Positions 12,430 to 27,625 are shown, counted from the stretch's first letter. The stretch: DNA of 27,625 nt from a virus (IMGVR_UViG_2623620506_000008:1-27625), one strand, 5' to 3'. A program made the numbers and translations. The notes: generated by a model not told the origin, from the letters alone.

Positions 12430-12723
12430 TCAATTACTGGCTGATAACTCTCTGACGATCTCCACCAGAGTTTCGCGTGATATGACGCGTTCGTCCGTCT
12501 GAAGGCGCTTATAGCCAATTTCTGCGCCAGCAACATTCACCAGCACACGATCTCCTGGCCGGAGTTTAAACGAACACGCGGTAGCGCCATCAGAACGCCT
12601 CACGATATCGAAATACTCACCTCCATCAGAACACACCTCAGCCACATCAACCCCCTTCTTTGCTATCAACAAATTTATCTCTGCCGGCGGGAAAAGCTCC
12701 CCTTCATGAAACCAAGATAACAA
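12430..12723 (-). CDS. Hypothetical protein with no in-frame ATG
   Basis: ORF has no ATG; candidate starts are TTG at 12723 or GTG at 12648 (AAGGGGG RBS 5 nt upstream). Lies 78 bp downstream of the LexA box on the minus strand. Confidence 0.3.
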   Translation of the reverse strand: MLSWFHEGELFPPAEINLLIAKKGVDVAEVCSDGGEYFDIVRRSDGATACSFKLRPGDRVLVNVAGAEIGYKRLQTDERVISRETLVEIVRELSASN

Positions 12724-12800
12724 ATGGCTCTAATTTCCTAATAGGTTGGCCGACAAAGAATTCAAAAATTTTACTGCAGCTCTTAAACCATATCTCAAAA

Positions 12801-12820
12801 TACTGTATAAATAAACAGTG
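12801..12820. promoter_or_regulatory. LexA (SOS) box
   Basis: TACTGTATAAATAAACAGTG matches the E. coli LexA consensus TACTGTATATATATACAGTA at 17 of 20 positions with intact CTGT-N8-ACAG; overlaps a plus-strand TTAAAC-18 bp-TATAAA promoter-like pair. Confidence 0.6.
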
Positions 12821-13140
12821 TTTATCCGTTCGGCTTAAGTATGCACGTGAAAGGCATCTTTGCGCAAGGTCATTTATCTAATTGATTTGGATAATTTTTA
12901 TCGCTACTTACGTGTAAAAAATGATCGTTATTTTTAACACTCAGCGCAGAAAAGTATGCTGGTATAGATATCTTATTCCAATACTCTAGCTTACCACTCA
13001 GGGAGTAGGTCCCTACGCCAAGGGTATATAGAAGCACGGACGCATTCTGTCAGGTTGGTAATTTGTTACTGCAGAGTGTATGTTTCATAATCGTTTTAAT
13101 AGATTAATATCATTTCATCGATCCGTTAAGGCGATCAAGT

Positions 13141-14184
13141 ATGCACGGCTGGCCTTCATACGACCAATGCTTAGAAAAGCATTCTGAAGAAACCATAAGT
13201 GACTTGCACTTTGTTACCACACCACTTCGGAAATTTGAGCTGACCAGTGGCTGCGCAAACGGGGTAGCACATTGCCTATTTAATTCTATAGAAGTAAAGT
13301 ACCCAACATTATTCAGCTATTTGTTAAGGGAATTTATGAAAAGAGGAATGATAATCACGAGTAAAGTTGAGATAGATCAGGAAAATAACTCCGTTAAATT
13401 TAGACCAGAATTTAGCCAAAAGGCTCTGCGATATGGAGTGCTTTATCTTGATGAAATTTGTGTCGCGCAGACCTCTCTGTTTCAAATTGGATTGCCGGTT
13501 GATTGGCAACAACTAAAGAAGGAGAAAATAGTTAATGAGATCATTGGTAAGCCATCGCTCAGCGGAACGGTCGATTTTGCAAAAGCAGCTTTAGATGCAT
13601 ATTCCCAGTCGTTTTCTGAGTTAAACAAACGCCGAAATGAAACTTGGTGTCTCAATAAAGAATTCAAATTCCTCAATGAGCGCATTCCATTTATTGATTG
13701 TCATGGGGAAACTCTAACATTTTTGAATGCGCTTCCTGTGCCTACCGAAGACTTTCCTATAGGTGATCTTTATGAATTCCGCATAAAAAGAGATGATGAG
13801 CGCAAAGAGTTGATGAATTCAATTGATCGACTTAGGCTCAACGTTCTGAAAAGTGAAGATAAACACAATGCACTTAAAGTAGGCTTACTTGATGTTGAGA
13901 GTAATCTCATAACAATGAATCGCCTAATCAAAGAAACGAAGAGAGGTTTCTACCTTACTGATTTTTCATTGGATTACTCATCTAAAGATATGCTCGAAGT
14001 TTTCAAAGGAACATATGAAGCAACCACCACCTCAGGATTCGACAAACTTTCAGCATTAATCTTAGGTATGGGGGCATCACTAGCTTCAGGATTCAATTTT
14101 AAGGGGGGATACAGATATAAGCAGGCAAAACCAAACTCCCCTTATTTTTACGCAGCAGAGATAGTACATAAGTTTGATGTTTAA
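13141..14184 (+). CDS. Orphan low-GC protein, function unknown (moron)
   Basis: 347-aa ORF on the opposite strand to the surrounding early operon; GC about 32-43% against 55-60% flanks; alternative start ATG at 13336 with AAGGGA RBS; strong hairpin just after the stop. Confidence 0.6.
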   Translation: MHGWPSYDQCLEKHSEETISDLHFVTTPLRKFELTSGCANGVAHCLFNSIEVKYPTLFSYLLREFMKRGMIITSKVEIDQENNSVKFRPEFSQKALRYGVLYLDEICVAQTSLFQIGLPVDWQQLKKEKIVNEIIGKPSLSGTVDFAKAALDAYSQSFSELNKRRNETWCLNKEFKFLNERIPFIDCHGETLTFLNALPVPTEDFPIGDLYEFRIKRDDERKELMNSIDRLRLNVLKSEDKHNALKVGLLDVESNLITMNRLIKETKRGFYLTDFSLDYSSKDMLEVFKGTYEATTTSGFDKLSALILGMGASLASGFNFKGGYRYKQAKPNSPYFYAAEIVHKFDV

Positions 14185-14195
14185 TTCTTCAAAGT

Positions 14196-14228
14196 GAGGA
14201 TTCAAATTTTAAGCGCATTTGAATCCTC
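14196..14228 (+). terminator. Perfect 12-bp stem-loop after the orphan gene (terminator or insulator candidate)
   Basis: GAGGATTCAAAT-TTTAAGCGC-ATTTGAATCCTC, 12 nt after the stop; weak U-tract. Confidence 0.4.
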
Positions 14229-14458
14229 GTCTTACTAAGTATATATCGTTTATGCCTAGAGTTTAATTACTGGAGTAAGATTTTCACTGACTTAAAATAT
14301 TGAACATGAGACGTTTAGGTATTTTCGGAGTTTGCGAGCCGACTAAGTAAACACAGCGTCCTTGACGCCCTACACTGACAACCTAACCTAGTCAGCATCT
14401 TTTTACGCTGATTCACTAATTATGTATGCCTGCGCGTTTAAATGCTCATTGGTGAATG

Positions 14459-14953
14459 TCATGGGTTAGTCCTCGCTAAAACTCTGATTCCCTCAGCAAT
14501 GTCTACCAACGTTTCTGAATATTCTCGCTGCGCGTCATTTCCAAATTCAAACGAGCCAGTGTCGTTATCAACACGACCATGCTCGTTATCGAAAGACTCG
14601 CGCTGCTTATCAACCCAGTTCGCAGCAGCAGACACACCTTCACTAAAAGCTGATTCTGTAGGCATGAAAGACAGATCGGCGAAGAACTCACCAAAGCCAA
14701 AGCAGACTGAATATGCCAGGCGGCCATGCGGTTTGTAGCCAGGGTTAGTGATATCCGTTGTTGAGTACGTGGCGGTGATTTCCTCAACTACCGCCTCTGG
14801 CCGCGATGGGTTATCAGACCATGGGATGCAAATCAGGTCGAAGTCTCGCGCCATCGTTCCATGAATAGCCATGGCGTAACCGTGCTTACGAGCTATCTCT
14901 GCCAGTGCCGGGTAAAGCGCGCAATATACTGGTGCGAAGTTAGCTGGTTTCAT
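14459..14953 (-). CDS. Hypothetical early protein
   Basis: Probable start is the ATG at 14953 next to the upstream stop; the track ORF extends to 15034; no confident family. Confidence 0.45.
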   Translation of the reverse strand: MKPANFAPVYCALYPALAEIARKHGYAMAIHGTMARDFDLICIPWSDNPSRPEAVVEEITATYSTTDITNPGYKPHGRLAYSVCFGFGEFFADLSFMPTESAFSEGVSAAANWVDKQRESFDNEHGRVDNDTGSFEFGNDAQREYSETLVDIAEGIRVLARTNP

Positions 14954-18037: not shown

Positions 18038-18595
18038 TCATAGCGCACCACCCAGCATCGTTGTAACCATCGCCATAATGGGCGCCACAGAATCAGGTCC
18101 GTCCAGGTAGAGCTTGGCTACGATGCTCTCGCTGATTTCCTTAAGGCGCTCGTGTCTGGGGGCTTTGAGAACGACAGCCTGAATGGCTTCTGCATCCTCT
18201 TTCAACGACCTGGCTACACGGACCGCGAAGCAATCGTTCTTAACCACGCGATCCCGGTACGCCAGCGGCAGAACCGAAATTATTACCGGCGCCATCTGCT
18301 CGACGTTTGCCCGGTAGGCCGGTGATTTCTCGTGGTTGTCCAGCCAGCGAAAAAGCTTCACGTTCCACACGTCGGGGCTTCCGCTTGTGTCGATGCCATC
18401 GAGCCCGGATTCCTCAACTGCCATCTTAATGGCCAGCGCGACAGCCACGCGGCCCTCTGCCGCCGCCCAGGCGCGAACAGCAGAACAGAGGGCGCGGTGA
18501 TCGACCGGCTGACCTTCGGCTTCGCCATGTTGATACTGGAATTTCAGGCGCTCTGACGGCGCTCTGTTATTCTGTTGAAAAGAAAGTGTTTGCAT
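18038..18595 (-). CDS. YdaT/CII-like early regulator (tentative)
   Basis: 185-aa ORF directly downstream of the Cro-like gene, ATG with AGGAG RBS; assigned by position. Confidence 0.4.
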   Translation of the reverse strand: MQTLSFQQNNRAPSERLKFQYQHGEAEGQPVDHRALCSAVRAWAAAEGRVAVALAIKMAVEESGLDGIDTSGSPDVWNVKLFRWLDNHEKSPAYRANVEQMAPVIISVLPLAYRDRVVKNDCFAVRVARSLKEDAEAIQAVVLKAPRHERLKEISESIVAKLYLDGPDSVAPIMAMVTTMLGGAL

Positions 18596-18606
18596 TTTCA
18601 GTGCTC

Positions 18607-18828
18607 CTACTTTGGTAATCCGTCAGTGGGGTTAGGGTAAGCTTCAGGATCAATCTCGTGTGGTGTCACTTGCCATTCCAGGAACTGACAAAGGGGAATG
18701 ATTCTTTTTTGTGGCACTCCGCTCGCATAGATCCACTTGCCGACAGCCTGACTGCTAATACCGAAGTGCTTCCCGATACGAGTGCGCGTTGCAGCTTTGC
18801 TTATTTTTTCTTGGGTTTGTTTGTTCAT
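18607..18828 (-). CDS. cro: Cro-like HTH regulator
   Basis: 73-aa product with HTH (TRIGKHFGISSQAVGKWI), AAGGAG RBS, divergent from the repressor gene; the track ORF extends to 19134. Confidence 0.65.
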   Translation of the reverse strand: MNKQTQEKISKAATRTRIGKHFGISSQAVGKWIYASGVPQKRIIPLCQFLEWQVTPHEIDPEAYPNPTDGLPK

Positions 18829-18842
18829 GTGCTCTCCTTCAT

Positions 18843-18925
18843 TGATGAAACAAAGCATACATGACGAAAGTTTATGTTTCAACACAACGAAAGATAATGT
18901 TTTAATGCTGAGTGAAACCTTAGGT
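18843..18925. promoter_or_regulatory. OR-like operator/promoter region between cro and repressor
   Basis: 17-mer ACGAAAGTTTATGTTTC (18864-18880) nearly identical to a 17-mer after the repressor gene; extra GAAAC half-sites; palindrome AACCTTAGGTT (18915-18925). Confidence 0.5.
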
Positions 18926-18933
18926 TGTAAAAT

Positions 18934-19353
18934 GTGCGTATGAATGAAATTACTTTCCCGACCTTCGCTAGAAGAATTCAACAAGTAATGGCTGAAAACG
19001 GCTGGTCGAAATCTGACCTCGCCAAAAAGGTCATGCTTTCGCATACGGCCGTTCAAAATTGGGCTAAGGGTAGAAATGTAGCCAGTGGAGAGCGGTTGAA
19101 GAGGCTTGCTGCTGTAACAGGAAAGCCTGAGCATTGGTTCTTTATGGAGGAAGGTCAGGAAGATGCGGCGACAAACACCTTGGGTCAGTCGGCTGTAGAA
19201 CTTGATGAGAAAGAACAGGCCCTACTTTCCCTCTTTAACCAGCTCCCTGAAGCTGAAAAGTTAAGACTCATCCTTCACACTAAAGCTGTCCTTCATGAGA
19301 TTGAGCTTCTAAAAAACGACGTATACGACATTATCAACAGCTCTAAAACATAG
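18934..19353 (+). CDS. cI: Prophage repressor, RacR/CI-like HTH, no peptidase S24 domain
   Basis: N-terminal HTH (WSKSDLAKKVMLSHTAVQNWAKGR), 139 aa, no Ser/Lys autocleavage domain; divergent from cro; first ATG at 18940. Confidence 0.7.
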   Translation: MRMNEITFPTFARRIQQVMAENGWSKSDLAKKVMLSHTAVQNWAKGRNVASGERLKRLAAVTGKPEHWFFMEEGQEDAATNTLGQSAVELDEKEQALLSLFNQLPEAEKLRLILHTKAVLHEIELLKNDVYDIINSSKT

Positions 19354-19377
19354 CTTAGGATTGCAACCTAATAATTC

Positions 19378-19402
19378 AGCGCCTACCAGGGCGCTTTTTT
19401 TT
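19378..19402 (+). terminator. Rho-independent terminator after the repressor gene
   Basis: AGCGCC-TACCAG-GGCGCT followed by TTTTTTTT. Confidence 0.6.
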
Positions 19403-19404
19403 GC

Positions 19405-19470
19405 CCTCTCATGAAACTTTTACTTTTGCGCCCTTTACATACGAAACTTTATGTTGCAGTATTATCTGCA
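19405..19470 (+). promoter_or_regulatory. OL/pL-like operator-promoter for the plus-strand early operon
   Basis: 17-mer ACGAAACTTTATGTTGC (19441-19457) matches the OR 17-mer at 15 of 17; partial copy ATGAAACTTTTAC at 19411-19423; TTTACA and TATTAT hexamers nearby. Confidence 0.45.
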
Positions 19471-19549
19471 TCGACAACACGCGCACCGTTGTCAGGTTAA
19501 AGAAACGTTCCGCCAGCCTGGCGACAAGGGCAAATGAGAGGGAATCATC

Positions 19550-19756
19550 ATGGTTCATCAGCACTATGGCACCCAGACGGTCAACCGCGGCGCAGTTCTG
19601 CCCGGCATGCTCGTTAAGCACAAAGACAGCACCTGGACGGCATCCGCCAACAAGCGCGGCAAGCTATATCTGCATCGCGGCATTGAGCGTACTTACACCA
19701 CCGAGCTGCTGGTCGAAGTTTTTCTTAATGGTGTAGGGAATGGCCTGAGCCATTAA
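19550..19756 (+). CDS. Hypothetical small protein, first gene of the early-left operon
   Basis: 68-aa ORF with GAGGG RBS; no Arg-rich N-like motif. Confidence 0.45.
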   Translation: MVHQHYGTQTVNRGAVLPGMLVKHKDSTWTASANKRGKLYLHRGIERTYTTELLVEVFLNGVGNGLSH

Positions 19757-19767
19757 CGGAGGGAGTC

Positions 19768-19929
19768 ATGCAAGAGAAAAAATGCGCTTACTGCAGCAAG
19801 CCCATCGAGCAGGGGAAGGAAGTTAAAAACAAATTGCTCTTCATCCGCGGCGCGCAGCTGGCGCGCGAACAACGCAATTACTGTTCAGTTCGTTGTGCCT
19901 CTTACGACCAGATGGCCCACGAGGCATAA
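19768..19929 (+). CDS. Small zinc-ribbon protein (not in the supplied ORF track)
   Basis: ATG at 19768 after GGAGGGAG RBS; 53-aa product MQEKKCAYCSKPIEQGKEVKNKLLFIRGAQLAREQRNYCSVRCASYDQMAHEA with CxxC...CxxxC; TAA at 19927. Confidence 0.5.
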   Translation: MQEKKCAYCSKPIEQGKEVKNKLLFIRGAQLAREQRNYCSVRCASYDQMAHEA

Positions 19930-20068
19930 CGTAAAAGCCGCGCAAGGCGGCCCGTACGTCCGGTGACACCGACCAAAGTTCCACCGGAATTTTTACCAAA
20001 ACCAAAAACACACCCAATGGGCGCTATCTCTGGCCCGGGGATCTTACATCCAAAAATGAGGATCTGAC

Positions 20069-23000
20069 ATGGAATTTTTCTATGTGGTCAAAGCCACTCA
20101 GAAATCCGGTAAGAAAGATGCAGTGGTCTGGTTCACTGCCAAAACTCAATCTCGCGCCGCGCTGATGATGGACGTTGCGCTGGAAGACGCAGAAATTGAA
20201 AGTGGCCGCGGTAAAGACTACGCCAAGCCTGTACGCACCGATTTCCCAGTGTACGACGACCTCCCGGAAGAAGGTACCGTGGATTTCACCTGGTGCGAAC
20301 GCTATGAGCTGGCCGACGACCAGCGCACCTGGAACGTGATCCCCGGTGCCGCGGATCAGGGTGAAACCACCCTCGCCCCAGTGACCACCAGTGATGAAGA
20401 ACTGCCTGCCGCGCCGGTAACCTCTACTCATACCGCAGGCACCGGCAAAACGTCCCTGCTTGAAAATCGCACCCCGGCGGTTCGCTTCGCCGTCCATCTA
20501 TTGGGTGATAAATACCTTTCGGCGATCAGCCAGGAGCAGCACATCGTTGCCAACGAACTGGCGACCGATGAGGGGAATGCTTACTTCCAGAACCTGATGC
20601 AGGCCAAAAATGACGTTGGTGATATTGGCGATCTGAGCCTGCATACCGAGTGGAAACTGGTGCAGGCCGTTAAAGACGTTTTTCCTCAGGACAAAGTGCA
20701 CGAATCCGCGTCGCTGGCCGCCTTCATGTCGGGCTGGATTAACGCCGATGATCGCAACCAACTGGTTGATGACTGGAAGAGTGGAAAGCTCCCGGCCAAG
20801 AATGAGCCTGAACATTGGTATGAAGACGACCTGCAGATCTGCAAAGGCGATGATGAGTTTACTCGTTATCCGGTCTGCAAATTGCCATTCCGCCAACAGC
20901 TTCTCGCCCAACTGACGGTGGACGAACTGCGCCATCATGTCACCCGCGATGAACATACGGAACTGCATGCGCTGGAGAGTGATACCGACAACAGCTACGT
21001 CCAGACTCTTCTGCTTGCTGCTGAAAGCTGCCCAGAGTTGAAGGAATTCGATACCAAGGCCCTGTGGAGCTATACCAACGCGGTCCGAAAGGTATTCAGC
21101 CAGGAAAAACGTCACGAGTTGGCTCTGGTACTTCGCTTCACCAGAATCTGGGTGACTACTGAGGCCAGTGACCACGACATCCTGACCAGTGAATGGGCAG
21201 CCGGCCATCGCATTGATGATGTAGGTATTCAAAAAGACCAGAAATCCGAAGGGCCACAACCTTCAGAACCCTATAAGCGCGCAGTGCCGCAGAACATGGC
21301 GAACCTGAGCATCGAGATTGCGATCGCCATGCTATATCCAGACGCGGTACCCGGGAAAATCAACCGTGCGCAGCTGATGGCTGCCAAAGAACTGGCTGAC
21401 AAAAAAGACGAGACTCACTCCAGGGCGCTCAAGGTGCTCGGCAAAACCTCTGATATTACTGACTACAACGCTGACAGTATTTTTGGCATTGCCCGTGCAC
21501 TCCCCTGGAGTGGAGATATAACCACGGTCGAACTGCGTAAGCAGGTTCGTGAATGGTTCACCGCGAACGGTATCTATGAAAATGGCGAGCGTTCAAAGGG
21601 TTATCCAGAGTGGGATGAAGATCCTCGCGCAAGCCGCCAGGTGATGGTGGAAGAGCCAGTAGCTACCAGCCAGCCGCAGGTCGCGAACCTCGGCGGCGGC
21701 ATGTTCTCCATCGATGGCCTGCTGGGTGGAAATACTAACCCGGTCATCAATATCCCCTCACATGAAGTAGAAAAACCGGAAACCGTAGCGGAGACCACCA
21801 GCGATGTGCAGATGGAAGCGACTCAGCCAGAGAAAGACAAAACTGTTGATGCGGTACCAACAGGCGAAAGCGTTGATGCAGCTGATCCGCAAACAGATAC
21901 CCTGAACCCGGCTGAGGTGCTGGCCGCCGCGGCGCCGGAGCTGGCGAACGCCACCACGCAGGAATCGACCACCGAAGCGCCAGACGCGAAAGCGAGCGCG
22001 CCGGAAGAGCAATCCTCACAACCGGTCCCGGAATACCCGGCGTACTTTGAACCTGGCCGTTATGAAGGCCTGCCGAACGACGTTTATCACGCAGCAAACG
22101 GGATCAGCTCCACTCAGGTGAAAGATGCCCGGGTCAGCCTGATGTACTTCAACGCCCGCCACGTCGCCAAAACCATCCCGCGGGCCCCTTCCAAGGTGCT
22201 GGACATGGGTAATCTTGTTCACGCCCTGGCGCTTCAGCCCGAAAACCTCGAGGCAGAGTTCAGCGTAGAGCCGGAGATCCCGGAAGGTGCTTTCACCACC
22301 ACCGCCACCCTGCGCGAGTTCATCGACTCGCACAACGCCAGCCTGCCGGCGCTGCTGAGTGCTGACGATATCAAAGCGCTGCTTGAAGAGCACAACGCCA
22401 CCCTGCCCGCGCAGCTGACGCTGGGCGCCTGCATGGAGGAAACGGCGCAGAGTTACATGTCGCTGCCGGAAGAGTTCCAGCGTATTGAAGTGATTCAGAG
22501 AAAGACCGCGGCAGCCATGAAAGCCTGCATCAAAGAGTATAACGCCACCCTGCCCGTGCCGGTTAAAACCAGCGGCAGCCGCGATGCGCTGCTTGAACAG
22601 CTGGCAATCATCAACCCTGACCTGGTGGCGCAGGAAGCCCAGAAACCGGCACCACTGAAAGTGTCCGGCAGCAAAGCGGAAATGATCCAGGCGGTTAAGT
22701 CGGTCAAGCCTGACGCTGTATTCGCCGACGAGCTGCTGGACGCCTGGCGCGAAAATCCGGGCGACAAGATTCTGGTGACGCGCCAGCAGCTGGCGACCGC
22801 CCAGGCCATCCAGGCTGCCCTGCTGGCACACCCGACCGCCGGCATGCTGCTGACGCACCCGAGCCGCGCCGTTGAGGTGAGCTATTTCGGCTTTGACGAC
22901 GAAACCGGGCTGGAAGTGCGCGTGCGCCCAGACCTGGAACTGGACCTCAACAACCTGCGTATCGGTGCCGACCTGAAAACCATCAGCATGTGGAACGTTA

Positions 23001-23326
23001 AGCAGGAGAGCCTGCGCTCCCGGCTGCACCGGGAAATCATCGACCGTGATTATCACCTGAGTGCGGCCATGTATTGCGAGACCGCGGCGCTGGACCAGTT
23101 CTTCTGGATCTTCGTCAACAAAGACGAAAACTACCACTGGATCGCCATTATTGAGGCATCCGCAGAACTGCTGGAGCTGGGCATGCTCGAGTACCGCAAA
23201 ACCATGCGCGCTATCGCTACCGGATTCGACACCGGCAACTGGCCGGCGCCTATCACCGCTGATTACACCGACGAACTGAACGACTTCGACCTGCGCCGCC
23301 TTGAAGCGCTGCGTACTCAGGCATAA
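20069..23326 (+). CDS. recE: RecE-like exonuclease VIII, PD-(D/E)xK nuclease C-terminal domain with long N-terminal region
   Basis: 1085 aa; C-terminal region has nuclease-like D...E-L-D...D-L-K motifs (RPDLELDLNNLRIGADLKTIS); sits directly upstream of an annealase gene as in Rac recE-recT; N-terminus recalls RecE (FPVYDDLPEEGTVDFTWCERY). Confidence 0.65.
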   Translation: MEFFYVVKATQKSGKKDAVVWFTAKTQSRAALMMDVALEDAEIESGRGKDYAKPVRTDFPVYDDLPEEGTVDFTWCERYELADDQRTWNVIPGAADQGETTLAPVTTSDEELPAAPVTSTHTAGTGKTSLLENRTPAVRFAVHLLGDKYLSAISQEQHIVANELATDEGNAYFQNLMQAKNDVGDIGDLSLHTEWKLVQAVKDVFPQDKVHESASLAAFMSGWINADDRNQLVDDWKSGKLPAKNEPEHWYEDDLQICKGDDEFTRYPVCKLPFRQQLLAQLTVDELRHHVTRDEHTELHALESDTDNSYVQTLLLAAESCPELKEFDTKALWSYTNAVRKVFSQEKRHELALVLRFTRIWVTTEASDHDILTSEWAAGHRIDDVGIQKDQKSEGPQPSEPYKRAVPQNMANLSIEIAIAMLYPDAVPGKINRAQLMAAKELADKKDETHSRALKVLGKTSDITDYNADSIFGIARALPWSGDITTVELRKQVREWFTANGIYENGERSKGYPEWDEDPRASRQVMVEEPVATSQPQVANLGGGMFSIDGLLGGNTNPVINIPSHEVEKPETVAETTSDVQMEATQPEKDKTVDAVPTGESVDAADPQTDTLNPAEVLAAAAPELANATTQESTTEAPDAKASAPEEQSSQPVPEYPAYFEPGRYEGLPNDVYHAANGISSTQVKDARVSLMYFNARHVAKTIPRAPSKVLDMGNLVHALALQPENLEAEFSVEPEIPEGAFTTTATLREFIDSHNASLPALLSADDIKALLEEHNATLPAQLTLGACMEETAQSYMSLPEEFQRIEVIQRKTAAAMKACIKEYNATLPVPVKTSGSRDALLEQLAIINPDLVAQEAQKPAPLKVSGSKAEMIQAVKSVKPDAVFADELLDAWRENPGDKILVTRQQLATAQAIQAALLAHPTAGMLLTHPSRAVEVSYFGFDDETGLEVRVRPDLELDLNNLRIGADLKTISMWNVKQESLRSRLHREIIDRDYHLSAAMYCETAALDQFFWIFVNKDENYHWIAIIEASAELLELGMLEYRKTMRAIATGFDTGNWPAPITADYTDELNDFDLRRLEALRTQA

Positions 23327-23331
23327 GGGGA

Positions 23332-24450
23332 ATGACCATGGAAAACATGAACATCGTAACTGCAGAGCAACAGGCTCCGAACACAATTTCTGCAACCAAC
23401 TCCATTTTCAATGTCCAGGCGCTGACCCAACTCCAGGCGGTTGCTGGCTTAATGGCACAGGCGGCCGTGACAGTTCCCGAACACCTACGGGGCAACCCGG
23501 CTGACTGCATGGCGATTATCATGCAGGCCATGCAGTGGGGCATGAATCCTTACGCCGTAGCGCAGAAAACGCACCTGGTAAACGGCGTGCTGGGTTACGA
23601 GGCGCAGCTGGTTAATGCGGTGATCTCCAGCTCAAATGCCATCGTAGGCCGCTTCCATTATGAATATGAAGGCGACTGGTCGAAGTGCGCCCGGATACGC
23701 GAGGAGGTTGTTAAAAAGCCTGCCAAGGGTGGCGGGACCTATGAGAAAAAAGAAATTGTCCGCGGCTGGACCAGTGATGATGAGCAGGGACTCTCGGTTC
23801 GTGTGGGCGCAGTTCTCCGCGGTGAAAGTGAAATTACATGGGGCGAGCCGGTTTATCTGTCCAGCGTAATTACGCGCAACTCCCCTCTCTGGGTATCGAA
23901 CCCAAAACAGCAGATCGCCTATCTGGCGCTCAAATACTGGGCGCGCCTCTACTGCCCTGCAGTGGTGCTGGGCGTGTATACCCCTGATGAAGTTGAGCAA
24001 AGAACCGAAAAAGAGATTAACCCGGCACCAGCGCGCGTAAGCCTGTCTGATATTTCCGGTGACAACGTAACAACCACTCACAGCGCGCAGGAGTCGGCAG
24101 CCAACATCGATGCTATGGCCGATGAATTCCGGGATCGCATTGAGGCAGCCCAGGACGTGGACAATGCAAAAGCGCTGCGTGCCGACATCGAAACCGCTAA
24201 GGCAACGCTTGGAACTGCCCTGTACACCGAACTGAAGAATAAGGCCGTGAAACGCTATTACCACGTGGACGCGCGTAACAATGTCGAGGCAGCAATCAAC
24301 TCCCTGCCCCAGCCTGGCGAGCCGGATGCCGCCGAACAGTTCGCAGAAGCCGAGCGCGTGCTGGCATCTTCAAAGCGTCACCTGGGCGACGAACTGCACG
24401 ATCAGTTCAGCATCACCCTGGCGGATATGAAACCGGAATACGTGGCCTAA
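23332..24450 (+). CDS. recT: Single-strand annealing protein, RecT/Redbeta family
   Basis: Follows the exonuclease; segments resemble recalled lambda Bet (PLWVSNPKQQIAYLALKYWARLY versus PWQSHPKRMLRHKAMIQCARLAF); probable start ATG at 23338. Confidence 0.6.
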   Translation: MTMENMNIVTAEQQAPNTISATNSIFNVQALTQLQAVAGLMAQAAVTVPEHLRGNPADCMAIIMQAMQWGMNPYAVAQKTHLVNGVLGYEAQLVNAVISSSNAIVGRFHYEYEGDWSKCARIREEVVKKPAKGGGTYEKKEIVRGWTSDDEQGLSVRVGAVLRGESEITWGEPVYLSSVITRNSPLWVSNPKQQIAYLALKYWARLYCPAVVLGVYTPDEVEQRTEKEINPAPARVSLSDISGDNVTTTHSAQESAANIDAMADEFRDRIEAAQDVDNAKALRADIETAKATLGTALYTELKNKAVKRYYHVDARNNVEAAINSLPQPGEPDAAEQFAEAERVLASSKRHLGDELHDQFSITLADMKPEYVA

Positions 24451-24484
24451 GGGAGGCGGGAGGGTTCGCCCTCCCGGTAACGAT

Positions 24485-25318
24485 ATGTTAAGAGAAAAAC
24501 CTGTTAAGCACCCGGCGATCCGTTACCACGGCGGTAAATTCCGCTTGGCATCCTGGATTATCCCTCAGATGCCTGAGCACGTCTGCTACGTGGAACCGTT
24601 CGGCGGCGCAGCTGGCGTATTGCTGCAAAAGCCTCGCAGCTATGCGGAAGTTTATAACGACTTGGATGGTGAGGTGGTGAACCTGTTCCGGGTGCTGCGT
24701 GACGCAGAGATGAACCAGCGCCTGCAACATGCGTGCATGCTCACGCCTTATTCTCGTGATGAATTTTGCGCAGCGCATGAAGTCACCGAAGAACCGATTG
24801 AGCGAGCAAGACGCATGGTTGTCCGCGCCAGCATGGGCTTTGGTTCAGCAGCAGGAATTGGCGGTAATTCCGGCTTCCGTAGCGACAGCAAAAGGAAATA
24901 TGCGACAGCTGCGCATCTGTGGGAGCGTTATCCGGAAAATCTGGCAGCAGTATGTCAGCGCCTTCAGGGGGTCATTATCGAAAACAAAGATGCCCTGTCA
25001 GTAATGCGAGCCCATGACGCTGAAACAACCCTGCACTACATCGACCCGCCTTATGTACCCGAAACCCGCGTGCATGGTAACCGTTATTACAGCCACGAAA
25101 TGACTTTAGAGGGGCATGAGCAATTGCTCGCAGTAGCCAGAACGATGACCGGAATGGTGATGATCAGCGGCTACGACTCGGATGTGTACAACGACATGCT
25201 GGTCGGATGGAAGAAAACGAAAAAATCTTCACGCATTAGCGCCGGTAGGGGTACGAAGGTCCGCACTGAATGTATGTGGCTTAACCCAGCATCACAACAG
25301 GCGGAGCGTGCAGCATGA
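24485..25318 (+). CDS. DNA N6-adenine methyltransferase, Dam-like (orphan)
   Basis: YHGGK near the N-terminus, EPFGGAAGV, catalytic DPPY (HYIDPPYVPE); no restriction endonuclease gene adjacent. Confidence 0.85.
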   Translation: MLREKPVKHPAIRYHGGKFRLASWIIPQMPEHVCYVEPFGGAAGVLLQKPRSYAEVYNDLDGEVVNLFRVLRDAEMNQRLQHACMLTPYSRDEFCAAHEVTEEPIERARRMVVRASMGFGSAAGIGGNSGFRSDSKRKYATAAHLWERYPENLAAVCQRLQGVIIENKDALSVMRAHDAETTLHYIDPPYVPETRVHGNRYYSHEMTLEGHEQLLAVARTMTGMVMISGYDSDVYNDMLVGWKKTKKSSRISAGRGTKVRTECMWLNPASQQAERAA

Positions 25319-25554
25319 AACTGATTAACCGCAGCACACAATCCCCACTCGCGCGCCAGGCGTGCGATATCGCGCTGGCAGCCCATGCTGAGCGCTACGG
25401 CGATTATGGCCCCAGCAAGATGAAAGAGACGTACACCGTGCGGGTAGAAGGCGTGAAGGTCTGGGTGGAGGTGGTGAACCGGAAGGCAAGCTACGTGGCC
25501 ACTGCGATGACCGGCATGCGCAGGCTCCGCTCCCTGCCCGGGCAGGTTTCCTGA
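25315..25554 (+). CDS. Hypothetical small protein
   Basis: 79-aa ORF, ATG overlaps the dam stop (ATGA), GGAG RBS. Confidence 0.4.
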   Translation: MKLINRSTQSPLARQACDIALAAHAERYGDYGPSKMKETYTVRVEGVKVWVEVVNRKASYVATAMTGMRRLRSLPGQVS

Positions 25555-25567
25555 TACCAATATTTCA

Positions 25568-25891
25568 ATGACAAATTTCCGACAGCTTTATAATGAGTTG
25601 TCGGAAGCCGGAGGTAATATGGCCAAGCTTCTTAACCTGCAGGAATGGGCTAAAGAAACCTATTCAACACCGCCCTCTCTTTCTACCCTTCGCCGCTGGG
25701 CCAGGGAGGGGCGCATCTTTCCTGCACCAGCGCTTCATGGCAAAGAATATAAGGTTCAACCGGATGCTATCTATGTGGATCCGAGCAAAAAGAACCTGCG
25801 ACCGAAACCTAAACACATGACGCTGCCCGCCGGCGGCACCCTACTGGAGAGACTGACTCATGGCGAAAAGGCCAGTACGTTACGACGCTAA
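25568..25891 (+). CDS. xis: Excisionase, lambda Xis-like
   Basis: LNLQEWAKETYSTPPSLSTLRRWAREGRIFPAPALHGKEYKV resembles recalled lambda Xis; preferred start ATG at 25619 with GGAGG RBS; overlaps the int start. Confidence 0.75.
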   Translation: MTNFRQLYNELSEAGGNMAKLLNLQEWAKETYSTPPSLSTLRRWAREGRIFPAPALHGKEYKVQPDAIYVDPSKKNLRPKPKHMTLPAGGTLLERLTHGEKASTLRR

Positions 25892-26945
25892 TCTGCCCCG
25901 TAACCTGACCTATCGTAAAAGAGACAGGCTTTATAGCTGGCGCAACCCGACAACCGGCCAGGAAATATCTCTTGGCCGGATCGACAGGAAGGATGCCATC
26001 TCTCAGGCCATAGAGGCCAACAACTACATCGAACAGAATTACCTGCCCTCAGCTCTGCTTGACCGCATAAAGGAGACCCCTACCTTTACGGTTAAGAGCT
26101 GGCTTGAACGGTACGAGGTGATCCTTGAGCGAAGAGAGTTGAAGCCAAACACCATGAAGGTCAGGCGAAATCAGATCGCAACCATTAAGGATGAATTCGG
26201 CAAGATGCCGTTATCCTCAGTTAGCACGAAGGACATATCAAACTTTCTTGAGTCCTATATTTTATGCGACAAGAAAAGCATGGCCGCCGGCCTACGGTCC
26301 GTGCTGCTGGACATTTTCAGGGAGGCTATTGTCGAAGGGCATATAGAAAGGAACCCAGCGGATCCTACGCGAACGCCGACACCAAAGGTAAAACGGGAGC
26401 GTTTGCTGCTCGAGCATTTTATAGTTATCCGCGCGGCAGCTGCTTCCCACTCGGAGTGGTTGCCGAACGCCTGCAATCTTGCTCTGGTTACAGGACAGCG
26501 CCGCGAGGACATTTCGCTTTTTCGGTTCAGTGACGTTAAGGATGGTAGGCTATTTGTTACGCAGGAGAAGACGGGACACAAACTGGCGCTGCCGCTTGAT
26601 TTGAAATTGGAGGCCGTGGATCTTGTGCTTGAAGAGGTAATCGAACGCTGCAGAGTAAATAATCCCTCAGACTTTATGCTTTTCTCCCCAGTCAGGCGTG
26701 GGGGCAGAAAGCCGGGCCCCTTAACTCCAGATGGTTTAACCCAGGCTTTTGCGGATGTGCGAGATGCAACGGCGTTAAAATTTGGCCCGAACCCACCGCC
26801 CTACCATGAGATCAGAAGCCTGGCCAGCAGACTATATGAAAAGGAACGTGGAGAGGAATTCACGCAACGTTTGCTCGGCCACAAAAATTTAACAATGACA
26901 AAAAAATACCTGGACGCACGCGGTGCAGAGTATGTTATGGTTTAG
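25860..26945 (+). CDS. int: Tyrosine integrase, lambda Int-like
   Basis: Extensive similarity to recalled lambda Int (LALVTGQRREDI, HEIRSLASRLYEKE, LLGHK, Tyr near the C-terminus). Confidence 0.9.
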   Translation: MAKRPVRYDANLPRNLTYRKRDRLYSWRNPTTGQEISLGRIDRKDAISQAIEANNYIEQNYLPSALLDRIKETPTFTVKSWLERYEVILERRELKPNTMKVRRNQIATIKDEFGKMPLSSVSTKDISNFLESYILCDKKSMAAGLRSVLLDIFREAIVEGHIERNPADPTRTPTPKVKRERLLLEHFIVIRAAAASHSEWLPNACNLALVTGQRREDISLFRFSDVKDGRLFVTQEKTGHKLALPLDLKLEAVDLVLEEVIERCRVNNPSDFMLFSPVRRGGRKPGPLTPDGLTQAFADVRDATALKFGPNPPPYHEIRSLASRLYEKERGEEFTQRLLGHKNLTMTKKYLDARGAEYVMV

Positions 26946-27213
26946 ACAGGATATGGATTATTCGAGTAAGTTTCGGGGGATTTCGTGAGAACACCGAAAA
27001 AACCCTTAAGAAACAAATAGATAAAAAGAGACCGAATACGATTCCTGTATTCGGTCCAGGGAAATGGCTCTTGGGAGAGAGCCGTGCGCTAAAAGTTGGC
27101 ATTAATGCAGGCTTAGTTGCCTTGCCCTTTAAGAATAGATGACGACGCCAGGTTTTCCAGTTTGCGTGCAAAATGGTCAATAAAAAGCGCGGTGGTCATC
27201 AGCTTAAATGTTA

Positions 27214-27257
27214 AAAACCGCCCGTTCTGGTGAAAGAACTGAGGCGGTTTTTTTATT
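27214..27257. terminator. Bidirectional rho-independent terminator between int and the host gene
   Basis: AACCGCC...GGCGGTT stem with inner GTTCT/AGAAC pairing, flanked by AAAAA on one side and TTTTTTTATT on the other. Confidence 0.5.
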
Positions 27258-27283
27258 GGAAATCAAAACGCTAGTTTAGGTAA

Positions 27284-27625
27284 TTAACAGAGTTTTTCAG
27301 CTCGTTCTATAAACGGTGCCAGACTCATTTTTTCGCCGGGATTGTTAGGATCATCAATCTGAATCACCGAAATGGGTTGGGCTTTAGTCTTCCCACTGGC
27401 AACTTCCTTTTGTGCGATATCGTTTAAAGGATACTGCACGAGGGTACTTGGGTTGATGACATACAAAGCATTACCCGGTCGGCAAGTCAGCATCACCTCT
27501 TCGCGATTAAACGCCCATTTGTCTTTACCCACTTCAAAACGGCTGACGGTAATCACCTGCGGTGCAGCCAGCGCCGCTGCAGAACTGGTGAGTAACAGAA
27601 ACGCCAGAATACTTTTTTTCATCAT
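27284..27625 (-). CDS. yebY: Host periplasmic protein, YebY-like (DUF2511)
   Basis: 113-aa product with signal peptide [22 protein letters not shown]; closely matches the recalled E. coli YebY; ORF starts at the window edge. Confidence 0.6.

What the first reader, a model, noticed from the sequence alone, without database searches (positions are those of the whole stretch)
20069..25318. RecE-like exonuclease, Redbeta/RecT-like annealase and orphan Dam methylase module with internal repeats in the exonuclease
The 1085-aa protein has a C-terminal PD-(D/E)xK nuclease-like domain and an N-terminal region of more than 600 residues, including a highly acidic linker and three copies of an (H/Y)NA(S/T)LP motif (DNA near 22329, 22389, 22539). 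The annealase follows, then a Dam-like methyltransferase with no restriction partner, which may protect against host restriction or tune phage gene expression. The function of the N-terminal region is not evident from sequence.
Basis: partly seen in the sequence, partly recalled or inferred. Interest (0 to 1): 0.45.

Follow-up and report, generated by a model that had tools for sequence, protein, structure and literature searches.

The report
Prophage RecE/RecT recombination genes plus methylase
This is an ordinary, already annotated recombination module (RecE exonuclease, RecT annealase) of an E. coli lambdoid prophage with an extra adenine methylase gene slipped in; the only new point is that the repeated motif is a chain of small SAP-like helix-linker-helix units inside the nuclease domain.

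Summary
The three ORFs are real and the main labels hold. ORF 20069-23326 is a RecE-family exonuclease. ORF 23332-24450 is a Gifsy-type RecT. ORF 24485-25318 is a D12-class N6-adenine methyltransferase with no nuclease partner. Identical proteins are already annotated this way in NCBI E. coli records.

The three (H/Y)NA(S/T)LP copies are real, but they do not lie in the N-terminal region. They sit in a ~155-residue insertion (aa ~738-893) inside the PD-(D/E)XK nuclease domain. This insertion replaces the K-12 RecE loop 665-698, the proposed DNA-capture loop at the channel rim. It is a chain of SAP/HeH-like units: relatives with one unit there pass Pfam's SAP threshold, and unit number varies across the family.

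The methylase is an accessory insert, absent from Gifsy-1, mEp237 and Enterobacter relatives. GATC specificity is unproven: it scores below the Dam-family cutoff.

Overall this is a new member of a known kind, of low to moderate interest.

The parts
20069..23326 (+). recE-family gene (1085 aa): 5'-3' dsDNA exonuclease of a RecET pair
   Evidence: ORF. Pfam PF06630 and PF12684; phrog_607. An identical protein is annotated 'RecE family exodeoxyribonuclease [E. coli]'.
20069..20359 (+). N-terminal Exonuc_VIII-type domain (aa 1-97), function unknown
   Evidence: PF06630 at aa 3-97, 74.8 bits against a cutoff of 25. It is conserved as far as K-12 RecE and Vibrio-type relatives.
20495..20788 (+). 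N1: first copy of a ~100-aa helical domain (aa ~143-240)
   Evidence: N1 against N2: Smith-Waterman z = 20.3; hhalign probability 98.6%, E 5e-16. N1 is absent from Gifsy-1, mEp237, the AR_0119 prophage and K-12 RecE.
20909..21208 (+). N2: second copy of the same domain (aa ~281-380), the copy shared by all RecE relatives including K-12
21581..22033 (+). Acidic, probably disordered linker (aa ~505-655)
   Evidence: Net charge is -18 over aa 520-655. The full-length model shows almost no secondary structure and pLDDT about 25 there. Length and sequence are highly variable among relatives.
22034..23323 (+). PD-(D/E)XK nuclease domain (aa 656-1085) with catalytic H718, D955, D968 and K970
22280..22747 (+). 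Insertion in the nuclease domain (aa ~738-893): an array of SAP/HeH-like helix-linker-helix units that replaces the K-12 RecE loop 665-698
   Evidence: Alignment to K-12 RecE and 3H4R. Predicted helices at aa 745-758, 765-777, 789-797, 814-827, 838-848, 850-857, 869-879 and 886-895, with pLDDT mostly 88-95. Single-unit homologues pass the Pfam SAP threshold. hhalign gives probability 93-96% for units 3 and 4.
22331..22348 (+). HNASLP motif, copy 1 (aa 755-760): end of helix 1 plus start of the linker of unit 1
22391..22408 (+). HNATLP motif, copy 2 (aa 775-780)
22538..22555 (+). YNATLP motif, copy 3 (aa 824-829), in the only complete SAP-like unit (aa 813-849)
23332..24450 (+). recT-family annealase gene (372 aa; the real start may be 23338)
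   Evidence: PF03837 at aa 39-228, 133 bits; phrog_561. It is 72% identical to Gifsy-1 RecT. BLASTP finds no similarity to K-12 RecT. One assembly calls a 370-aa product.
24457..24476 (+). Conserved GC-rich hairpin just after the recT stop: 8-bp stem with a TTCG loop
   Evidence: Read from the alignment. Gifsy-1, mEp237 and AR_0119 keep a GC-rich inverted repeat at the same place; the loop is GTAA in AR_0119 and mEp237.
24485..25318 (+). Orphan D12-class (alpha-type) N6-adenine DNA methyltransferase (277 aa). Motif I FGGAAG is at aa 39-44 and motif IV DPPY at aa 187-190.
   Evidence: PF02086, 73.5 bits; PADLOC MTase_II, E 4e-58. The exact protein is annotated 'DNA adenine methylase'. The gene lies between the hairpin and the DUF4060 gene, and its stop overlaps the DUF4060 ATG.
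25315..26945 (+). Context: DUF4060 gene (25315-25554), excisionase (25568-25891) and lambda-type integrase (25860-26945), which close the operon
   Evidence: The same order occurs in Gifsy-1, mEp237, AR_0119 and Enterobacter elements, without the methylase.

Best explanation
The region is the early-left (Rac/Gifsy-type) recombination operon of a lambdoid prophage of E. coli. The gene order is kilR-like, ydaE-like, recE, recT, methylase, DUF4060, xis, int.

RecE is a two-part protein. Its C-terminal PD-(D/E)XK domain resects the 5' strand of dsDNA ends, by homology to K-12 RecE, which is a toroidal tetramer. RecT then coats the 3' overhang and anneals it to a complementary strand.

Where K-12 RecE has a 34-residue, largely disordered loop (665-698) proposed to capture dsDNA at the channel rim, this RecE carries a ~155-residue ordered helical insertion. 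It arose by internal duplication of a SAP/HeH-like helix-linker-helix unit. The (H/Y)NA(S/T)LP motif is the C-terminal end of helix 1 plus the start of the linker in three such units. I infer that this array is an enlarged DNA-end-capturing collar. That step is not shown.

The N-terminal 655 residues contain a conserved ~97-aa head domain, a tandemly duplicated ~100-aa helical domain, a third helical segment and an acidic disordered linker. Their function remains unknown.

The methyltransferase is a gene cassette inserted between recT and the DUF4060 gene. It is probably co-transcribed early and most likely methylates adenines in phage DNA to blunt restriction. Its target sequence is unknown.

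Shown here: gene identities, fold, catalytic residues, repeat homology, and the accessory status of the methylase. Inferred: DNA binding by the array, tetramer formation, early co-expression, and the anti-restriction role.
For: Gene identities.

Synteny: Gifsy-1, mEp237 and an E. coli prophage share the order recE-recT-DUF4060 followed by excision/integration genes, without the methylase. K-12 Rac has kilR-ydaE-racC-recE-recT-ralR-rcbA-xisR-intR.

Insertion site: it equals K-12 loop 665-698. [quoted passage not shown]

SAP identity: homologues with one unit in this loop score 27-34 bits on Pfam SAP, above the 23.9-bit threshold. Two others carry a precomputed Pfam HeH domain. hhalign of unit 3 against a flank-trimmed SAP-loop profile gives probability 93% and E 2.5e-7; helix 2 of unit 4 gives probability 96% and E 1e-9. 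Single-unit proteins align helix 1 to the window's first unit and helix 2 to its last unit, which indicates internal expansion.

Loop size classes: the distance from the catalytic His to the conserved Glu falls into discrete classes, and the window's class (219 residues) holds about a third of the 101 sequences compared.

N1/N2 duplication.

Methylase as an insert.
Against: The window's own SAP hit is below threshold: 15.1 bits against 23.9, E 0.018.

Units 1 and 2 match only helix 1 (hhalign probability 36-39%) and lack basic residues. The insertion as a whole is net acidic (-8), and only units 3 and 4 carry K/R clusters. This does not favour strong DNA binding.

No DNA-bound RecE structure exists, so the role of the K-12 loop is itself a proposal.

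I found no published description of this insertion.

The methylase target cannot be read from sequence. Its closest phage relatives are at most 59% identical and come from very diverse hosts.
Confidence: 0.85

Rival explanations
1. The helical insertion does not bind DNA. It is a protein-protein interface, for example a docking platform for the long C-terminal extension of this RecT type, or an element that stabilises or changes the oligomer.
For: RecE proteins with the long insertion are paired with long RecTs of 361-372 aa that carry a ~140-aa tail beyond the Pfam RecT domain. K-12 RecE, which has the short loop, pairs with a 269-aa RecT. The insertion is net acidic and units 1 and 2 lack basic residues. 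In lambda the annealase C-terminal domain binds the exonuclease (review PMC11611040).
Against: The homologous loop in single-unit relatives is a threshold-passing SAP domain, a motif known mainly as a DNA binder. Stand-alone 300-430-aa nucleases also carry the units, but I did not check whether they have RecT partners. The K-12 loop at this position became partly ordered in crystals with DNA, according to the review.
Confidence: 0.25
2. The methyltransferase is a true Dam-type GATC methylase. It would top up GATC methylation on rapidly replicating phage DNA or tune phage gene expression.
For: It matches the full length of TIGR00571 'dam' (E 6e-19) and E. coli Dam structures (E 2e-8), with the motif order X-I-TRD-IV. 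A possible N-x-x-x-R element (N128...R132) could correspond to the Dam N120...R124 hairpin if the HMMER alignment is shifted by two residues; this is my reading and has low confidence. NCBI names the protein 'DNA adenine methylase'.
Against: It is below the curated cutoffs: 68.7 against 114.85 bits for TIGR00571, and 36.2 against 441 bits for the Dam equivalog. The target-recognition region aligns poorly, and no proline matches Dam P134 in that alignment. Close relatives occur in phages of very diverse hosts, including Pseudomonas, Bordetella, Caulobacter and Meiothermus. Dam-related phage enzymes with relaxed specificity exist (Hia5 family, PMC3299994).
Confidence: 0.35
3. The module is a decaying, non-functional remnant, as in many cryptic Rac-like prophages, and the repeats are drift in a gene under relaxed selection.
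For: Rac itself is cryptic. Enterobacter relatives look truncated, with host genes directly beside the replication genes.
Against: All ORFs are intact and the catalytic residues are conserved. The window also holds portal, terminase, Q, NinG and O/P genes. The insertion has one nearly fixed length (His-to-Glu 216-223 residues, mostly exactly 219) in about 33 clusters at the 50% identity level and is predicted with high confidence, which indicates purifying selection.
Confidence: 0.07

Closest known systems
RecE/RecT of Salmonella prophages Gifsy-1 and Gifsy-2 and coliphages mEp237 and HK225
   Same: They share the same operon order and the same long nuclease-domain insertion with the HNAxLP units (His-to-Glu distance 219 in Gifsy-1). 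RecT is 72% identical to Gifsy-1 RecT. DNA identity is 79-82% over the C-terminal half of recE plus recT.
   Different: Those RecEs are 961-969 aa and lack the N1 domain copy. None has a methyltransferase between recT and the DUF4060 gene. Their integrases are on the opposite strand.
E. coli K-12 Rac prophage RecE (exonuclease VIII, PDB 3H4R) and RecT
   Different: Overall identity is only 25%. K-12 has a 34-residue loop (665-698) where the window has the ~155-residue SAP-like array. The NCBIfam equivalog cutoff is not met (348 against 1269 bits). K-12 RecT is not detectably similar by BLASTP. Rac carries ralR/ralA and rcbA where the window has the methylase and DUF4060.
Stand-alone DUF3799/PDDEXK phage exonucleases with a single SAP or HeH domain in the same loop (e.g. 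P0243, P0250, P0253, P0287)
   Same: They have the same nuclease core and the same insertion point. Their SAP unit aligns with the window's units.
   Different: They are 300-340 aa with no N-terminal region. They have one canonical unit instead of an expanded and partly degenerate array, and they lack the 6-residue NATLPx linker extension.
E. coli Dam, T4 Dam and DpnM (D12-class GATC methyltransferases)
   Same: Same Pfam family and motif order, the catalytic DPPY motif, and similar length.
   Different: The score to EcoDam is only about 37 bits and lies below the Dam-family cutoffs. The target-recognition region is not alignable with confidence, so specificity is unknown.

Membership tests
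RecE family exonuclease (exodeoxyribonuclease VIII) | PD-(D/E)XK nuclease fold of the RecE/DUF3799 type | tested here: met
RecE family exonuclease (exodeoxyribonuclease VIII) | Catalytic His, Asp, Asp and Lys (K-12 H652, D748, D759, K761) | tested here: met
   H718, D955, D968 and K970 align with them. D955, D968 and K970 are invariant and H718 nearly so in 28 homologues.
RecE family exonuclease (exodeoxyribonuclease VIII) | N-terminal Exonuc_VIII domain (PF06630) | tested here: met
   74.8 bits against a cutoff of 25, but only profile positions 5-95 of 203 are matched.
RecE family exonuclease (exodeoxyribonuclease VIII) | Equivalog of K-12 RecE (NCBIfam NF007259 cutoff) | tested here: not met
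   348 bits against a cutoff of 1269. It is a family member but not an ortholog-grade match.
RecE family exonuclease (exodeoxyribonuclease VIII) | Processive 5'-3' dsDNA exonuclease activity and a toroidal tetramer | not testable with these tools
   This needs biochemistry, or a multimer model, which was not available here.
RecT family annealase | RecT domain (PF03837), encoded immediately after the exonuclease gene | tested here: met
   133.4 bits against a cutoff of 24; phrog_561 E 9e-165. The gene starts 5-11 nt after the recE stop.
RecT family annealase | ATP-independent ssDNA annealing and a specific interaction with its RecE | not testable with these tools
   No solved structure matched by sequence.
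Dam (GATC-specific D12 adenine methyltransferases) | D12-class fold with an AdoMet motif I and the catalytic DPPY motif | tested here: met
   PF02086, 73.5 bits against a cutoff of 22. Motif I FGGAAG at aa 39-44 and DPPY at aa 187-190 were read from the translation.
Dam (GATC-specific D12 adenine methyltransferases) | Score above the curated Dam-family and Dam-equivalog thresholds | tested here: not met
   TIGR00571 gives 68.7 against 114.85 bits. NF008152 gives 36.2 against 441 bits.
Dam (GATC-specific D12 adenine methyltransferases) | Methylation of GATC | not testable with these tools
   The target-recognition region aligns with low confidence to EcoDam.
Orphan (solitary) methyltransferase | No cognate restriction endonuclease adjacent | tested here: met
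   The neighbours are recT and the DUF4060 gene, both present in relatives that lack the methylase. PADLOC finds no hit in DUF4060. Only this 27.6-kb window was examined.
SAP / HeH helix-extension-helix domain | Pfam SAP (PF02037) at its gathering threshold | tested here: not met
   The window's insertion scores 15.1 bits against 23.9, E 0.018, and only helix 2 of the last unit is matched.
SAP / HeH helix-extension-helix domain | Homology to threshold-passing SAP units at the same position in relatives | tested here: met
   P0243, P0250, P0253 and P0257 score 27-34 bits on SAP. HeH is precomputed for P0287 and P0288. hhalign gives probability 93% for unit 3 and 96% for helix 2 of unit 4. Units 1 and 2 reach only 36-39%.
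SAP / HeH helix-extension-helix domain | DNA binding | not testable with these tools
   This is inferred from family knowledge and from the proposed role of the K-12 loop. The net acidic charge argues for caution.

The most novel reading that the evidence does not exclude
The loop at the channel entrance of RecE-family toroidal exonucleases may be an evolvable slot. In this slot small DNA-binding modules, here SAP/HeH-like units, are duplicated in tandem from 0 to about 5 helix-1 units and about 3 helix-2 units. The window's 3+2 array would then form a crown of 12-20 helix-linker-helix units around the tetramer's DNA entry port. Such a crown could set end capture, processivity or substrate preference. 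That would explain differences in recombineering behaviour between RecE types and give a handle for engineering them. The separately duplicated N-terminal helical domain could be a second tunable element tied to linear-linear recombination.
Probability: 0.3. Interest if true: 0.45.

Novelty: new member of a known kind. Interest (0 to 1): 0.22.

Why it matters
For genome annotation it matters little, because all three proteins are already correctly named in public records.

For recombineering and phage recombination biology there is one modest, testable point. The only RecE with a solved structure, from K-12 Rac, belongs to the short-loop class. About a third of the related clusters compared here, including Gifsy-1, mEp237 and this prophage, carry a well-ordered ~155-residue SAP-like array at the presumed DNA-capture site. 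Some also carry a duplicated N-terminal domain.

If the array binds DNA ends, these RecEs may differ in substrate capture. They would then be worth testing as recombineering tools.

The methylase shows that the slot after recT, which holds ralR in Rac, can take up an anti-restriction-type cargo gene.

Tried and rejected
- Self-BLASTP of RecE printed nothing useful. I replaced it with segment-wise Smith-Waterman with shuffles and hhalign.
- A third copy of the N-terminal domain (aa 403-505) is rejected. The z-scores are 1.2 and -0.5 and hhalign probability is below 1%. A 38-nt DNA similarity between 20525 and 21359 remains.
- AF2 on the full-length protein with a shallow 20-sequence alignment gave pLDDT 44.5 and was not used for fold claims.
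- The profile search for distant nuclease domains returned only 20 proteins. That was still enough for a confident C-terminal model.
- I considered a relation of the methylase to the non-specific M.EcoGII and dropped it, because M.EcoGII is a beta-class enzyme (abstract of PMC7544214) and this protein has the alpha motif order.
- A relation to the Dam-like non-specific Hia5/Hin1523 family (PMC3299994) could not be tested, because I had no Hia5 sequence. It stays open.
- No solved structure matched RecT by sequence.
- PADLOC gave no defence-system hit for RecE, DUF4060 or the low-GC ORF.
- The original RecE structure paper (PMC2688778) is not held. I used the 2023 review instead.
- Literature searches for SAP or DUF3799 in RecE found no description of the insertion.
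- Promoter and terminator scans of 18500-27625 gave counts not clearly above shuffled expectation (promoters 4 found against 5.8 expected; terminators 17 against 11.4 with sd 3.5). The one convincing site is a terminator after the repressor gene at 19378-19395.
- No tRNA genes are present in the window.


Full report
OBSERVATION. The three ORFs exist exactly as described: 20069-23326 (1085 aa), 23332-24450 (372 aa) and 24485-25318 (277 aa), all on the + strand. The motif [HY]NA[ST]LP occurs three times, at aa 755, 775 and 824 (DNA 22331, 22391, 22538). Composition predicts 1.5e-4 occurrences. The same three sites form a 29-nt DNA repeat family with 90% and 72% identity to the first copy. The acidic linker is real: aa 520-655 has net charge -18, and the low-confidence full-length model shows almost no secondary structure there. 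The motif copies are not in the N-terminal region; they lie inside the nuclease domain.

CONTEXT. The window is a lambdoid prophage. It holds portal, large terminase, Q antiterminator, NinG, DUF1367 and replication O and P genes. It also holds a YdaT/CII-like gene, an HTH repressor and a YdaE-like gene.
- A KilR-like ORF lies at 19550-19756; Pfam KilR was seen on the matching gene in sister assemblies.
- After these come recE, recT, the methylase, DUF4060, excisionase and integrase.
- The order parallels K-12 Rac: kilR-ydaE-racC-recE-recT-ralR-rcbA-xisR-intR.
- Exact copies of all three proteins are in NCBI as 'RecE family exodeoxyribonuclease', 'RecT family protein' and 'DNA adenine methylase', all from E. 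coli.
- The same prophage, with an identical RecE, sits next to yebY-copD-copC-holE in the assemblies shown, out of at least 24 contigs that carry this RecE, and each place shown has the methylase.
- No complete E. coli genome in the collection has a near-identical copy. The best match is 87% identity over 54% of the query.

RecE. Pfam finds the Exonuc_VIII N-terminal domain (aa 3-97, 74.8 bits) and the DUF3799 PDDEXK domain (aa 904-1060, 41.2 bits). PHROG 607 matches with E = 0. By sequence, the K-12 RecE crystal chain 3H4R matches in two pieces: query 671-737 to chain 5-70, and query 900-1063 to chain 93-252.
- A first AF2 run on the whole protein with a shallow alignment was poor (pLDDT 44.5).
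- I then collected more distant nuclease domains and modelled aa 655-1085 with a 28-sequence alignment. The result had pLDDT 91.5 and pTM 0.73.
- Foldseek against the PDB puts 3H4R first (E 7e-10), followed by other PD-(D/E)XK nucleases such as Cas4, MGME1, RecB, AdnA and lambda exonuclease.
- K-12 H652, D748, D759 and K761 align with H718, D955, D968 and K970. These residues are invariant or nearly so in 28 homologues. D968 and K970 are kept in all but one incomplete protein of the 101 sequences that carry the His and Asp anchors.
- The protein falls far below the NCBIfam equivalog cutoff for K-12 RecE (348 against 1269 bits) and is only 25% identical to it. It belongs to the Gifsy-1/mEp237/HK225 branch.

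WHAT THE REPEATS ARE. Between the two pieces that match 3H4R, the window has about 165 residues where K-12 has about 23. In true K-12 numbering the site is the loop [34 protein letters not shown], residues 665-698. [quoted passage not shown] It adds that these loops became partly visible in crystals grown with DNA (PMC11611040, section 2.3).

In the window this loop is replaced by an ordered helical array. The predicted helices are at aa 745-758, 765-777, 789-797, 814-827, 838-848, 850-857, 869-879 and 886-895, with block pLDDT mostly 88-95. Relatives show what the unit is.
- Short stand-alone DUF3799 nucleases have a single segment at the same place, such as MDQMKAALKEAGLKVTGKKEDLVARLKQA. These segments pass Pfam's SAP threshold: P0243 33.4, P0250 34.4, P0253 29.6 and P0257 27.1 bits, against a cutoff of 23.9.
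- Two further homologues carry a precomputed Pfam HeH domain.
- Intermediate proteins have one unit that already shows the EYNA signature, for example SLKAFIREYNADKPKAEQLKLTGKKEELQDAIRAV.
- In a joint alignment, helix 1 of single-unit proteins aligns with the window's first unit, and their helix 2 aligns with its last unit. The array therefore looks like an internal expansion of one SAP-like unit.

Profile-profile comparison against a SAP-loop profile, trimmed of the conserved nuclease flank, gives these results:
- Unit 3 (aa 813-849): probability 93%, E 2.5e-7.
- Helix 2 of unit 4 (aa 859-879): probability 96%, E 1e-9.
- Units 1 and 2: probability 36-39%, matching helix 1 only.

The (H/Y)NA(S/T)LP motif is thus the end of helix 1 plus a linker that is six residues longer than in canonical SAP. 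On its own, the window's insertion does not reach Pfam's SAP threshold (15.1 bits, E 0.018).

Across 101 sequences (98 database proteins, mostly 50%-identity cluster representatives, plus window, Gifsy-1 and K-12 RecE), the distance from the catalytic His to the conserved Glu falls into classes:
- 71-96 residues: 15 sequences, including K-12 at 78.
- 100-124 residues: 40.
- 150-199 residues: 9.
- 216-223 residues: 33, including the window and Gifsy-1 at 219.
- 244-273 residues: 4.

The long form is therefore a common, length-constrained subfamily and not a peculiarity of this window. Other relatives fill the same loop with different short modules, either an RRTKAGK type as in K-12 or a PTEPQRKKYDAWVKxGxP type that is itself repeated in P0179.

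MECHANISM. Homology gives the exonuclease-plus-annealase mechanism of RecET. The exonuclease resects the 5' strand at a dsDNA end, and RecT anneals the resulting 3' overhang (established knowledge; review PMC11611040). The role of the array as a DNA-capturing collar is my inference. It rests on its position at the K-12 'DNA-capture' loop and on its SAP ancestry. Against it, the array is net acidic (-8), only units 3 and 4 carry K/R clusters, and units 1 and 2 are degenerate. The main rival is a protein-protein role, for example docking the ~140-residue tail of this RecT type. Long-loop RecEs are paired with RecTs of 361-372 aa, and K-12's short-loop RecE is paired with a 269-aa RecT. I did not test this co-variation systematically.

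N-TERMINAL REGION. Residues ~143-240 (N1) and ~281-380 (N2) align over 97 columns at 27% identity. Smith-Waterman gives z = 20.3 against shuffles, and hhalign gives probability 98.6% and E 5e-16.
- N2 is shared with K-12, Gifsy-1 and mEp237 RecE.
- N1 is present only in the E. coli, Leclercia and Enterobacter clade of 1057-1141 aa. This accounts for most of the extra length.
- A suspected third copy (aa 403-505) is not supported.
- Some Enterobacter homologues carry a faint Pfam 'YdfE_C' hit in this region.
- The function of the N-terminal region is unknown for K-12 RecE too. It is dispensable for basic activity but improves linear-linear recombination (review).

RecT. The Pfam RecT domain covers aa 39-228 (133 bits). 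The protein is 72% identical to Gifsy-1 RecT, shows no BLASTP-detectable similarity to K-12 RecT, and has no sequence match in the PDB. It is a RecT, not a Red-beta. One assembly calls the start two codons later.

METHYLTRANSFERASE. The evidence for the class is PF02086 (73.5 bits), the motif order X-I-TRD-IV, motif I FGGAAG at aa 39-44 and DPPY at aa 187-190 (read), and PADLOC MTase_II with E 4e-58.
- It is below the Dam-family cutoff (68.7 against 114.85 bits) and far below the Dam equivalog cutoff.
- It reaches only about 37 bits against E. coli Dam structures, with a poorly aligned recognition region.
- Its best phage relatives are at most 59% identical and come from very diverse hosts, including Hafnia, Yersinia, Pseudomonas, Bordetella, Vibrio, Meiothermus, Caulobacter, Streptomyces, Listeria and haloarchaea.
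- Only one of 5426 complete E. coli genomes has even a partial DNA match.
- 'D12-class orphan adenine methyltransferase' is therefore supported, and 'Dam/GATC' is not established.

The gene is an insert. Gifsy-1, mEp237, an E. coli AR_0119 prophage and Enterobacter Rac-like elements have recT followed directly by the DUF4060 gene. In the window the methylase sits between a conserved GC-rich hairpin after recT and the DUF4060 start, and its stop overlaps that start as ATGA. Rac carries ralR/ralA in the corresponding slot. An early-expressed anti-restriction role is a reasonable inference but was not tested.

VERDICT. This is a correctly recognised, ordinary RecET module of the Gifsy type with an accessory orphan adenine methylase, already annotated as such in public records. 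The additions from this work are:
- the repeats form a SAP/HeH-like array that replaces the presumed DNA-capture loop of the nuclease domain, a family-wide feature for which I found no published description;
- the N-terminal domain is duplicated;
- the methylase is a cassette insert of unknown specificity.

Interest is low to moderate.

Noticed in passing
window 24457-24476: A GC-rich hairpin lies 7 nt after the recT stop: an 8-bp stem CGGGAGGG/CCCTCCCG with a TTCG loop. A GC-rich inverted repeat is kept at the same place in mEp237 and the E. coli AR_0119 prophage (stem GGGAGGG/CCCTCCC, loop GTAA) and, with a diverged 3' arm, in Gifsy-1. UUCG and GNRA tetraloops are both known to be unusually stable (my own knowledge), and no T-run follows. 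It may be an mRNA-stabilising or processing element between recT and the next gene.
   Followed up: partly
window 27019-27163: Rfam finds the overlapping sRNA pair SraC/RyeA (+, 178 bits) and SdsR/RyeB (-, 116 bits) 74 nt after the integrase stop. The prophage therefore sits at the ryeA/ryeB locus next to yebY. The attachment site itself was not mapped.
   Followed up: partly
window ~12500-14500, ORF 13141-14184 (+): A low-GC island (0.38-0.41 against 0.55-0.58 around it) holds a 347-aa ORF on the strand opposite to its neighbours. It has a Pfam DUF6236 hit (E 5e-10) and no PADLOC hit. It looks like a moron or possible defence cargo in the nin region. Sister assemblies call it as 282 or 347 aa.
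   Followed up: no
L009-L012 (Enterobacter spp.): Enterobacter genomes carry a truncated Rac-like element: rep P/O, ydaT, ydaS, repressor, ydaE, recE (1057 aa), recT, DUF4060, xis, int. It is integrated next to genes whose products carry the ATP_bind_3 and DEAD/DbpA Pfam domains, which match ttcA and dbpA, the genes beside Rac in E. coli K-12. Host genes directly abut the replication genes.
   Followed up: no
L005 (metagenome scaffold, ERZ28628285): This variant of the same prophage lacks the O/P replication genes, ydaT, ydaS and the repressor between the DUF6236 ORF and ydaE. It is a deletion derivative with an intact recET-methylase arm.
   Followed up: no
homologues P0174, P0179, P0192, P0199, P0211 (nuclease-domain loop): The same loop in other RecE-family proteins is filled by an unrelated short module (PTEPQRKKYDAWVKxGxPxxE...). 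This module is itself tandemly repeated at least four times in P0179. The loop therefore appears to be a general hotspot for repeat expansion.
   Followed up: partly
window 20525-20562 and 21359-21396: A 38-nt direct similarity (76%) encodes ISQEQHIVANELA and INRAQLMAAKELA at the starts of the N1 segment and of the third helical segment. Profile comparison does not support a third domain copy, so this local match is unexplained.
   Followed up: partly
P0031 and other Enterobacter RecE proteins (N-terminal region): The N-terminal region carries a faint precomputed Pfam hit to YdfE_C (PF27432). This may link the E. coli protein YdfE to the RecE N-terminal region.
   Followed up: no
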